Shown here in pieces: positions 8,837-9,228 of a DNA stretch of 64,000 nt. This stretch comes from Escherichia coli (GTDB taxonomy: Bacteria; Pseudomonadota; Gammaproteobacteria; Enterobacterales; Enterobacteriaceae). The DNA is taken from the NCBI RefSeq assembly GCF_048403405.1, contig NZ_CP183129.1. One strand, written 5' to 3'. Every line of letters starts with the position of its first letter. The stretch's first letter is position 1. Both the position numbers and the translations under genes were made by a program. The notes beneath the pieces are model-generated. The model was not told where the DNA came from. It saw only the letters and a program-made list of their open reading frames with translations, and did no database searches.

Positions 8837-8963
8837 AGGGGCTTCATCCGAATTGCGCCATTGTTGCAATGGCGGTTTTTATTGTTTTTCACGACAGTAA
8901 CCGCACCTACACTGTCATGACATTGCTCGCCCCTATGTGTAACAAATAACCACACTGTGAATG

Positions 8964-8977
8964 TTGTCTTTAATCAA
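8964..8977. promoter_or_regulatory. candidate FNR site in the nrfA promoter region
   Basis: TTGTCTTTAATCAA (reverse strand TTGATTAAAGACAA) matches TTGAT-N4-ATCAA at 8 of 10 positions, about 134 bp upstream of nrfA ATG. Confidence 0.35.
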
Positions 8978-9228
8978 TTGTAAGTGCATGTAAAATACCA
9001 CTTTAGAGTTAGTCAGTATCTTCCTCTTTTTCAATAGCATGCATAACTGCATGTTCCTCAAAGAATTAATCAACTTTTGTTGCTGACCTTCAAAAATTAC
9101 CCTGCCGTTTATTTGCACAATTCTACTTTTGCGTGATCTGTCGCCCAAATACTAAACAAAACTGCCAATACCCCTACATTTAACGCTTATGCCACATATT
9201 ATTAACATCCTACAAGGAGAACAAAAGC

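What the first reader, a model, noticed from the sequence alone, without database searches (positions are those of the whole stretch)
8837..9228. acs-nrfA divergent control region
A 392-bp AT-rich intergenic region separates the divergently transcribed acs and nrfA. It carries an FNR-like half-palindrome (TTGTCTTTAATCAA, 8964..8977) about 134 bp upstream of the nrfA ATG. Both genes respond to carbon and oxygen status, and this region is expected to hold overlapping FNR, NarL/NarP, CRP, Fis and IHF sites; only the FNR-like motif could be seen directly.
Basis: partly seen in the sequence, partly recalled or inferred. Interest (0 to 1): 0.25.

Follow-up and report, generated by a model that had tools for sequence, protein, structure and literature searches.

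The report
Known E. coli nrfA–acs control region

Summary
The window is E. coli chromosome. nrfA lies on the minus strand with its ATG at 8836, and acs on the plus strand with its ATG at 9229. The gap between them is 392 bp at 38.5% G+C, and it differs from K-12 MG1655 by one base.

Published numbering for the K-12 nrf promoter places its start at window 8929. This follows from +102 being the third base of nrfA codon 3, with +1=C, +4=G and -14=G as cross-checks. The flagged motif (8964-8977) therefore spans -35 to -48, centred at exactly -41.5, the mapped FNR site.

The other published elements fall where expected:
- NarL/NarP 7-2-7 site at -74.5
- a Fis-like site at -15, over the -10 element
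- the acsP1 start at 9005 and the acsP2 start at 9209
- CRP sites at -69.5 and -122.5 from acsP2

As a bare consensus match the motif is weak: 57 equally good matches occur in the window. Position and conservation carry the argument. The block from the NarL site to the FNR site is nearly invariant across Escherichia, Salmonella and Citrobacter. An FNR-like site precedes nrfA in 76 of 86 species loci, against about 21 in shuffled controls.

Side notes are a conserved structured nrfA leader of unclear role and the small ORF ytcB, which overlaps the FNR site.

The parts
8837..9228 (.). nrfA-acs divergent intergenic control region (392 bp, 38.5% G+C)
   Evidence: for coordinates and composition. 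One SNP against K-12 MG1655, at 9035. Present in 5413 of 5426 complete E. coli genomes.
8964..8977 (-). FNR site of pnrf, TTGATTAAAGACAA on the nrfA strand, centred at -41.5 (class II activation). The same site is centred at -34.5 relative to acsP1.
   Evidence: Sequence. The -41.5 position comes from PMC5434802 combined with the +1 derivation. Only one position varies (G/A) across 10 Escherichia/Salmonella/Citrobacter sequences. FNR-like sites lie upstream of nrfA in 76 of 86 species loci against 21 in shuffles.
8929..8929 (-). pnrf transcription start (+1, C)
   Evidence: Derived from PMC5434802. +102 is the third base of nrfA codon 3 (AGG), so the ATG A is +94. Also +1 = C, +4 = G and -14 = G.
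8936..8944 (-). pnrf extended -10: TG at -15/-14 and hexamer TACACA at -12..-7. Position -7 is A (K-12 type), not the EHEC O157:H7 improved base.
   Evidence: Sequence. The -7 and -14 statements are in PMC5434802.
8937..8951 (.). Fis-like 15-mer GTGTAACAAATAACC centred at pnrf -15, taken to be Fis I, which overlaps the -10 element
   Evidence: Consensus scan, one mismatch. The PMC5434802 abstract and text place Fis I over the -10 element. The exact -15 centre is from my own recollection of Browning et al. 2005.
8978..8995 (.). Spacer between the FNR and NarL/NarP sites. Literature places IHF I here, and from my recollection of Browning et al. 2010 an overlapping NsrR target. It contains TACATGCACTT (8982..8992, minus strand).
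   Evidence: IHF I is displaced by NarL/NarP bound at -74.5. NsrR half-site-like match with 2 mismatches. The G in TGCA is A in Salmonella and most Citrobacter. The exact boundaries are inferred.
8996..9011 (.). NarL/NarP 7-2-7 site TACCACTTTAGAGTTA, centred at pnrf -74.5. It covers the acsP1 start.
   Evidence: Scan: 2 mismatches to TACYYMTnnAKRRGTA, and the only such site in the region. The -74.5 position is from PMC5434802. Invariant in 10 Escherichia/Salmonella/Citrobacter sequences. Also present at the same 33-bp offset from the FNR-like site in Enterobacter sp. L011 and Citrobacter sp. L095.
9005..9005 (+). acsP1 transcription start (weak distal acs promoter), 224 bp upstream of the acs ATG and 76 bp from pnrf +1, back to back
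   Evidence: PMC2759082 Table 1 gives the sequence ending at the start site and the -224 distance. acsP1 is repressed by FNR.
9079..9094 (.). CRP II of acsP2, centred at -122.5 (GTTGCTGACCTTCAAA). It also scores as an FNR-like match.
   Evidence: Scans. RegulonDB lists two CRP activator sites. The -122.5 value is from my recollection of Beatty et al. 2003, which is not held in the library. TCAAA half-site conserved in all ten sequences; GTTGC half and spacer variable.
9132..9147 (.). CRP I of acsP2, centred at -69.5 (CGTGATCTGTCGCCCA)
   Evidence: Scan, 3 mismatches. The -69.5 proximal CRP position is in PMC3531196. The A at -93 from the acs ATG (window 9136) is stated to lie in the first CRP site (PMC2763269). 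Conserved across the ten sequences.
9197..9209 (+). acsP2 -10 hexamer TATTAT (9197..9202) and start site C at 9209, 20 nt before the ATG
   Evidence: PMC2759082 5'RACE and table. Invariant block.
8837..8929 (-). 93-nt nrfA leader with two predicted hairpins, +10..+41 (8889..8920) and +56..+74 (8856..8874), and a GGA motif at +81..+83
   Evidence: Folds. Conservation and pair counts. PMC5434802 calls the role of the conserved leader unclear.
8827..8829 (-). GGA of the CsrA site (ACAAGGAUA, +101..+103) just inside the nrfA coding sequence
   Evidence: PMC5434802 p+102A experiments. Sequence.
8933..8989 (-). ytcB (b4821 in K-12), an 18-codon ORF MHLQLIKDNIHSVVICYT lying wholly upstream of pnrf +1 and spanning the FNR site
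   Evidence: K-12 RefSeq annotation, mapped through the alignment. The start codon is ATA in Salmonella and most Citrobacter.
9042..9056 (.). Conserved inverted repeat ATAACATGnnGTTAT (as read on the nrfA strand), at pnrf about -120 and acsP2 about -160. Probably part of the shared upstream IHF region.
   Evidence: Conserved island within otherwise diverged sequence. The assignment to IHF is from my recollection of published positions and was not verified here.

Best explanation
The region is the characterised E. coli nrfA-acs shared regulatory region.

**The flagged motif.** It is the single FNR site of the nrf promoter, centred at -41.5. Under anaerobiosis FNR binds it and activates pnrf as a class II activator. 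The same binding occludes the -35 region of the weak back-to-back promoter acsP1, whose start lies 76 bp away.

**Nitrite and nitrate control.** NarL/NarP bind the 7-2-7 site at -74.5 and displace the repressing IHF from IHF I, which lies between the two sites.

**Nutrient control.** Fis bound over the -10 element shuts pnrf down in rich medium. CsrA acts on the GGA at +101..+103 to lower translation.

**The acs side.** The main promoter acsP2 starts 20 nt before the ATG and is activated by CRP at -69.5 and -122.5. Fis and IHF act there as anti-activators.

**What is shown and what is not.** Shown here are the sequence positions, near-identity to K-12, and conservation. Taken from the literature are the binding, activation and repression. 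Inferred is that this strain behaves like K-12, because it carries the K-12-type A at -7 and differs in the intergenic region by one base, at -106.
For: - **Identity with K-12.** The 392-bp region is identical to K-12 except at 9035. It is present with acs and nrfA annotated in 5413 of 5426 E. coli genomes.
- **FNR site position.** FNR at -41.5 is stated in PMC5434802. Their numbering (+102 = third base of codon 3; +1 = C; +4 = G; -14 = G) places +1 at 8929 and the motif at -35..-48.
- **FNR dependence.** pnrf53 gives 5119 units in the wild type against 54 and 36 in the two fnr-deleted strains.
- **acsP1.** It is repressed by FNR, and its start at 9005 comes from PMC2759082.
- **Other sites.** NarL/NarP 7-2-7, the Fis-like site, CRP I and CRP II are found at the published offsets. 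The A at acs -93 lies inside CRP I.
- **Phylogenetic footprint.** The block from the NarL site to the FNR site is nearly invariant in Escherichia, Salmonella and Citrobacter, while the flanks diverge and carry a 35-bp indel.
- **Core promoter within E. coli.** The 91-bp core is at least 99% identical to the window in 3563 of 5414 E. coli records.
- **Wider conservation.** An FNR-like site lies upstream of nrfA in 76 of 86 species loci against 21.2 +/- 3.6 in shuffles. At one mismatch or fewer the figures are 42 against 2.0.
Against: - No experiment was done on this strain.
- The consensus match alone is weak: 8 of 10 positions, with 57 comparable matches in the window.
- The sigma-70 consensus scan finds no promoter in the region. 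This is expected for activator-dependent promoters but gives no independent support.
- IHF sites were not recovered by a strict consensus scan, and CRP-like matches are not enriched over shuffles.
- The centres of several Fis, IHF and NsrR sites, and the -122.5 value, rest on my recollection of papers the library does not hold.
- The species loci are related, so the shuffle comparison overstates independence.
Confidence: 0.96

Rival explanations
1. The motif is a chance FNR-like match in AT-rich intergenic DNA with no function.
For: Matches of this quality are common. There are 57 in the window, and 0.28-0.38 are expected in the 392 bp. A better match (one mismatch) sits inside a pseudogene at 45411.
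Against: The site is centred exactly at the published -41.5. pnrf activity falls about 100-fold without FNR. The site is nearly invariant across three genera, and equivalent sites precede nrfA in most Gammaproteobacteria sampled.
Confidence: 0.01
2. The sequence is conserved because it encodes the small protein YtcB, whose ORF spans it, rather than because it binds FNR.
For: K-12 RefSeq annotates ytcB (b4821) over window 8933..8989 on the nrfA strand. The ORF is intact in the window, in E. coli L044 and in E. albertii.
Against: - The ATG is ATA in Salmonella and in five of the six Citrobacter sequences, while the DNA stays conserved.
- The invariant block runs upstream of the ORF into the NarL/NarP site.
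- The 3' part of the ORF, outside the binding sites, takes non-synonymous changes within Escherichia, such as His-Ser to Leu-Gly.
- The ORF lies upstream of the only mapped nrf start, so no known mRNA carries it.
- No paper on E. coli ytcB was found.
Confidence: 0.02
3. The site is mainly a CRP-family target serving acs (acsP1) rather than an FNR activator site for nrfA.
For: CRP and FNR sites resemble each other. The acsP2 CRP II site also scores as FNR-like. The motif lies at -34.5 from acsP1. Kumari et al. inferred acsP1 partly from an FNR site.
Against: The motif has the FNR-type TTGAT half and 4-bp spacer. As a CRP site it scores poorly: the best overlapping CRP-like 16-mer has 3 mismatches and is offset. 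Published work shows that FNR activates pnrf from it and represses acsP1. acs transcription is mainly from acsP2.
Confidence: 0.01

Closest known systems
E. coli K-12 pnrf / acsP1 / acsP2 shared regulatory region (Tyson 1994; Browning 2002, 2005, 2006, 2010; Beatty 2003; Godfrey 2017)
   Same: The sequence is the same except for one base, 9035 (pnrf -106). The FNR site at -41.5, NarL/NarP site at -74.5, K-12-type -10 element, CRP I, CRP II and both acs start sites are all the same.
   Different: The only difference is the T at 9035, where K-12, BL21 and E. coli L044 have C on the plus strand. Its effect is unknown. It lies in the poorly conserved upstream part, where the stimulatory IHF III is reported to act upstream of -87.
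EHEC O157:H7 nrf promoter variant
   Same: Same architecture and the same FNR, NarL/NarP and Fis sites.
   Different: EHEC carries an improved -10 base at -7. This gives FNR-independent activity and resistance to Fis repression. The window has the K-12 base (A) at -7, window 8936.
Salmonella enterica nrf promoter
   Same: The FNR and NarL/NarP sites are identical, and acs is divergent in the same arrangement.
   Different: - Salmonella has a 35-bp insertion upstream of the NarL site and lacks IHF III.
- It differs around +1.
- It has a G-to-A change in the spacer, which by my recollection of Browning 2010 inactivates the NsrR target.
- The predicted leader fold differs.
E. coli nir promoter (FNR at -41.5 with NarL/NarP, IHF and Fis)
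   Same: Same logic: class II FNR activation is held down by nucleoid proteins and relieved by NarL/NarP. This comparison rests on my own knowledge, and on titles cited.
   Different: It is a different locus with a different NarL site position, and it has no divergent partner promoter. It was not examined here.

Membership tests
Class II FNR-activated promoter | Sequence match to TTGAT-N4-ATCAA | tested here: met
   TTGATTAAAGACAA matches 8 of 10 positions, with the left half perfect. The same asymmetric form, TTGAT-N4-nnCAA, is the consensus upstream of nrfA in 76 species loci.
Class II FNR-activated promoter | Site centred near -41.5 from a mapped transcription start | tested here: met
   +1 = window 8929, from four numbering statements in PMC5434802. 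The site spans -35..-48. The paper states -41.5.
Class II FNR-activated promoter | Transcription depends on FNR and anaerobiosis | not testable with these tools
   Literature for the near-identical K-12 fragment: 5119 against 54 and 36 units without FNR.
NarL/NarP 7-2-7 target | Two inverted TACYYMT heptamers separated by 2 bp | tested here: met
   TACCACTTTAGAGTTA at 8996..9011 has 2 mismatches of 14 specified positions and is the only such site in the region. It is invariant in 10 sequences. Its centre is -74.5, as published.
CRP class III (tandem-site) activated promoter, acsP2 | Two CRP sites at about -69.5 and -122.5 from the mapped start | tested here: met
   The start at 9209 is from 5'RACE. 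CRP-like 16-mers are centred at -69.5 (3 mismatches) and -122.5 (4 mismatches). -69.5 is confirmed, and the A at ATG-93 lies inside CRP I. The matches are weak, and CRP-like hits are not enriched overall (13 against 8.9 in shuffles).
Fis repression by -10 overlap (Fis I) | Fis-type 15-mer overlapping the -10 hexamer | tested here: met
   GTGTAACAAATAACC at 8937..8951 has one mismatch to a degenerate Fis consensus and is centred at -15. The paper says Fis I overlaps the -10 element. The consensus is loose: 7 hits against 4.4 expected.
IHF sites (IHF I-III) | Match to WATCAANNNNTTR at the published positions | tested here: not met
   No site with one mismatch or fewer. IHF binding here is known from footprints in the literature. 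A consensus scan is a poor test for IHF, so this does not argue against the sites.
Intrinsic terminator (plus-strand reading of hairpin 8856..8874) | G+C-rich stem followed by a T run, at the end of a transcription unit | tested here: inconclusive
   The stem and T run are present. Against this, 0.6 such sites are expected by chance in the region, stability is unremarkable (z = -1.5), and no plus-strand transcription unit is known to end there. The Serratia counterpart lacks a clean T run.
Conserved small-protein gene (ytcB) | ORF and start codon conserved in related genera | tested here: not met
   The start codon is lost in Salmonella and in five of the six Citrobacter sequences.

The most novel reading that the evidence does not exclude
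The conserved 93-nt nrfA leader may be a post-transcriptional control element in its own right.

Hairpin 1 (+10..+41) may compete with an alternative pairing of its 3' arm (+34..+41) to the start-codon region. Hairpin 2 (+56..+74) sits just upstream of a GGA motif that CsrA could use.

The alternative pairing dominates the predicted Salmonella fold but not the E. coli fold. This could explain the unexplained repression by sequences downstream of +10 in Salmonella.

The evidence does not exclude this, but neither fold energies nor covariation support it statistically.
Probability: 0.1. Interest if true: 0.3.

Novelty: already known. Interest (0 to 1): 0.06.

Why it matters
As a discovery it matters little. 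The region is one of the best-dissected examples of signal integration at a bacterial promoter, combining oxygen through FNR, nitrite and nitrate through NarL/NarP, growth rate through Fis, IHF, CsrA, and carbon status through CRP on the acs side.

For a genome scan it has two uses:
- It is a positive control. A reader working from sequence alone picked the true FNR site.
- It is a caution. The same consensus score occurs dozens of times by chance in 64 kb, so only position relative to a start site, together with conservation, identifies the real site.

For this strain, the K-12-type base at -7 predicts FNR-dependent, Fis-repressible nrf expression, unlike EHEC O157:H7.

Tried and rejected
- **Rfam scan.** An E-value-threshold scan of 8500..9600 gave only a sub-threshold match to a human lncRNA family (20.3 bits against a gathering score of 40), which is a chance hit.
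- **Sigma-70 promoter scan.** It found no consensus promoter in 8700..9350. This is uninformative, because all three promoters are weak or activator-dependent.
- **Other consensus scans.** A strict IHF scan found nothing. CRP and NsrR half-site scans were not enriched over shuffles, so these cannot place sites without the literature.
- **Primary papers not available.** The library does not hold Beatty 2003 (PMC180988) or Browning 2010 (PMC2897348). Some site centres therefore rest on my recollection and are marked as such.
- **Origin of the ytcB annotation.** Nothing was found in three attempts or in a broader search.
- **Other papers checked.**
  - The main text of the FNR ChIP-seq paper does not mention nrfA.
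  - Rodionov 2005 has no nrfA site analysis.
- **Covariation test of the leader hairpins.** 89.8% of cells pair, but no pair changes on both sides and the shuffles do equally well. Structure is therefore not demonstrated beyond sequence conservation.
- **Terminator reading of hairpin 2 on the plus strand.** I considered it and ranked it low.
- **A text discrepancy.** The paper prints the EHEC -10 element as TATACT. K-12 numbering gives TACACA, which becomes TACACT with the stated single change at -7. I treated the printed hexamer as a slip and relied on the position statement.

Full report
**What is there**

The window is E. coli chromosome. A 701-bp query around the finding is 100% identical to strain TUM14771. 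It matches 5413 of 5426 complete E. coli genomes, with acs and nrfA annotated under the match. nrfA ([10 protein letters not shown]...) is on the minus strand with the A of its ATG at 8836. acs ([10 protein letters not shown]...) is on the plus strand with its ATG at 9229. The divergent gap is 8837..9228, which is 392 bp at 38.5% G+C against 50.7% for the window. Across 8780..9260 the window differs from K-12 MG1655 at two bases, only one of them intergenic: 9035 is T where K-12 has C on the plus strand.

**The observation**

TTGTCTTTAATCAA is at 8964..8977, and its centre lies 134.5 bp from the nrfA ATG. On the nrfA strand it reads TTGATTAAAGACAA, with one perfect FNR half-site and one degenerate half. 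As a bare consensus match it is unremarkable:
- 57 sites in the window match TTGAT-N4-ATCAA with two mismatches or fewer.
- About 0.3-0.4 such sites are expected in the 392 bp.
- The best match in the window (45411..45424) lies inside a frameshifted SopA-family gene.

The sequence alone therefore does not establish a site.

**Position relative to the mapped start**

Godfrey et al. 2017 (PMC5434802) state that pnrf is the single nrf promoter and that FNR binds one site centred at -41.5. Their numbering can be transferred to the window without seeing their figure.
- The p+102A substitution keeps the arginine codon (AGG to AGA). So +102 is the third base of nrfA codon 3, the A of the ATG is +94, and +1 is window 8929.
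- Three further statements agree with this. The K-12 transcript starts with C, +4 is G, and -14 is the G of the extended -10 TG (sequence).

With +1 at 8929 the motif covers -35..-48, centre -41.5. FNR dependence is documented for the near-identical K-12 fragment: 5119 units against 54 and 36 in two fnr-deleted strains.

**The other elements**

*The nrfA side*
- **NarL/NarP.** The only 7-2-7 match in the region, TACCACTTTAGAGTTA at 8996..9011, is centred at -74.5, the published NarL/NarP position.
- **Fis.** A Fis-like 15-mer at 8937..8951 is centred at -15, over the -10 hexamer (TACACA, -12..-7). This fits the statement that Fis I overlaps the -10 element.
- **The -7 base.** It is A, the K-12 type, and not the EHEC O157:H7 improvement that gives FNR-independent, Fis-insensitive expression.

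*The acs side*
- **Start sites.** Olvera et al. 2009 (PMC2759082) give promoter sequences ending at the start sites. acsP1 is at -224 from the ATG (window 9005). acsP2 is at -20 (window 9209) and was confirmed by 5'RACE.
- **Geometry of acsP1.** pnrf and acsP1 are back to back with starts 76 bp apart. The FNR site is centred at -34.5 of acsP1 and the NarL/NarP site covers its start. This fits the report that FNR fully represses acsP1.
- **CRP I.** A CRP-like 16-mer is centred at -69.5 of acsP2 (9132..9147). RegulonDB's description gives the proximal CRP site at -69.5 and lists two CRP, three Fis and three IHF sites. Kinnersley et al. place the A at -93 from the acs start (window 9136) in the first CRP site.
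- **CRP II.** A second CRP-like 16-mer is centred at -122.5 (9079..9094). The -122.5 value, the centres of the remaining Fis and IHF sites, and the NsrR target in the FNR-NarL spacer rest on my recollection of papers the library does not hold.

**Related sequences**

A scan of species-representative genomes for the NrfA active-site motif ([11 protein letters not shown], back-translated) returned 120 loci.

- **Gene arrangement.** acs is divergent from nrfA only in Escherichia, Salmonella and Citrobacter (nine loci). nrfA has other neighbours in Enterobacter sp., Pluralibacter, Serratia, Providencia, Vibrio, Shewanella and the rest.
- **Footprint.** An alignment of the window with these nine loci shows a clear phylogenetic footprint.
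  - The block from the NarL/NarP site through the FNR site, about 50 bp, is nearly invariant. The FNR site varies only by G/A at one position.
  - CRP I, the acsP2 -10 region and an inverted repeat ATAACATGnnGTTAT (9042..9056) are also conserved.
  - The surrounding sequence diverges. Salmonella and Citrobacter carry a 35-bp insertion just upstream of the NarL site, where the paper says Salmonella lacks IHF III.
- **Within E. coli.** The 91-bp core is at least 99% identical to the window in 3563 of 5414 records and 95-99% identical in the rest.
- **Wider sample.** 76 of 86 loci with a usable upstream region carry an FNR-like site within 260 bp of the nrfA ATG, against 21.2 +/- 3.6 in shuffles. 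At one mismatch or fewer the figures are 42 against 2.0. The consensus is TTGAT-N4-nnCAA, so the degenerate right half is a general property of nrfA sites and not a peculiarity of E. coli. The loci are related, so the contrast with shuffles overstates independence.

**Mechanism**

The best explanation is the published one. It is shown here only at the level of sequence position and conservation.
1. FNR at -41.5 activates pnrf and occludes acsP1.
2. IHF, and by my recollection NsrR, in the spacer hold pnrf down.
3. NarL/NarP at -74.5 displace IHF.
4. Fis over the -10 element represses in rich medium.
5. CsrA acts at the GGA at +101..+103.
6. CRP at -69.5 and -122.5 drives acsP2, with Fis and IHF as anti-activators.

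Because the window carries K-12-type bases at every site I could place, it should behave like K-12. The single difference, at -106, lies in the poorly conserved upstream part and has unknown effect.

**Rivals**
- **Chance.** It is excluded by position, genetics and conservation.
- **Coding constraint from ytcB.** K-12 RefSeq annotates this 18-codon ORF over 8933..8989. This explanation is unlikely for three reasons. The start codon is ATA in Salmonella and most Citrobacter while the DNA stays conserved. The conserved block extends beyond the ORF. The ORF lies upstream of the only mapped start.
- **A CRP reading of the motif.** It fits neither the spacing nor the published data.

**Side observations**
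- **Leader structure.** The 93-nt nrfA leader folds into two hairpins. Both are conserved in eleven enterobacterial sequences, and all substitutions preserve pairing. However, no pair changes on both sides and the shuffles do as well, so structure is not demonstrated.
- **Serratia.** It has a different-sequence hairpin in the place of hairpin 2.
- **Alternative pairing.** RNAalifold and the S. arizonae fold pair the 3' arm of hairpin 1 with the AUG region, whereas the E. coli fold leaves the AUG free. The paper calls the leader's role unclear and reports unexplained repression downstream of +10 in Salmonella. This is the only part of the region where something new might still be found.
- **Plus-strand reading.** On the plus strand hairpin 2 looks like a terminator, but nothing is known to end there.

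**Verdict**

The feature is already known, and interest is low.

Noticed in passing
window 8837..8929 (minus strand); hairpins 8889..8920 and 8856..8874: The 93-nt nrfA leader is conserved and predicted to form two hairpins. All substitutions in eleven enterobacterial sequences keep pairing, but covariation is not significant. Serratia has a different-sequence hairpin at the second position. In S. arizonae the predicted fold instead pairs +34..+41 with the AUG region. The literature calls the leader's role unclear.
   Followed up: partly
window 8856..8890 (plus strand): Read on the plus strand, hairpin 2 plus GTTTTTATTGTTTTT looks like an intrinsic terminator for a transcript antisense to nrfA. 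No such transcript is known, and the stability is unremarkable (z = -1.5).
   Followed up: partly
window 8933..8989 (minus strand): The ytcB (b4821) 18-codon ORF annotated in K-12 spans the FNR site and ends 4 bp upstream of pnrf +1. Translating it would need an unmapped nrfA-strand transcript starting upstream of 8989. Its start codon is lost in Salmonella and most Citrobacter. I found no paper describing it.
   Followed up: partly
window 9042..9056: The inverted repeat ATAACATGnnGTTAT is conserved across Escherichia, Salmonella and Citrobacter within otherwise diverged sequence (pnrf about -120, acsP2 about -160). It probably belongs to the shared upstream IHF region, but this was not verified.
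   Followed up: no
window 9035: This is the only intergenic difference from K-12: T here, where K-12, BL21 and another E. coli have C. It lies at pnrf -106, in the upstream region where the stimulatory IHF III is reported.
   Followed up: no
L123 (NZ_CP170101.1, E. coli BL21), corresponding to window about 9129..9228: In this BL21 record the whole acsP2 promoter (CRP I to the acs ATG) is replaced by about 230 bp carrying a truncated integrase gene and a TTGACA-N17-TAAACT promoter. From memory (not searched) it resembles the class 1 integron Pc promoter and 5' conserved segment. It looks like an engineered constitutive-acs strain.
   Followed up: partly
window 45411..45424: The best FNR-consensus match in the whole window (TTGATAAAAATCAC, one mismatch) lies inside a frameshifted SopA-family gene next to malM. 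It is probably a chance match, and it shows that consensus score alone does not identify sites.
   Followed up: partly
L003..L122: The divergent acs-nrfA arrangement is confined to Escherichia, Salmonella and Citrobacter among 120 nrfA loci. Other Enterobacterales with 75-89% identical NrfA have different upstream neighbours yet keep an FNR-like site at a similar distance from the ATG.
   Followed up: partly
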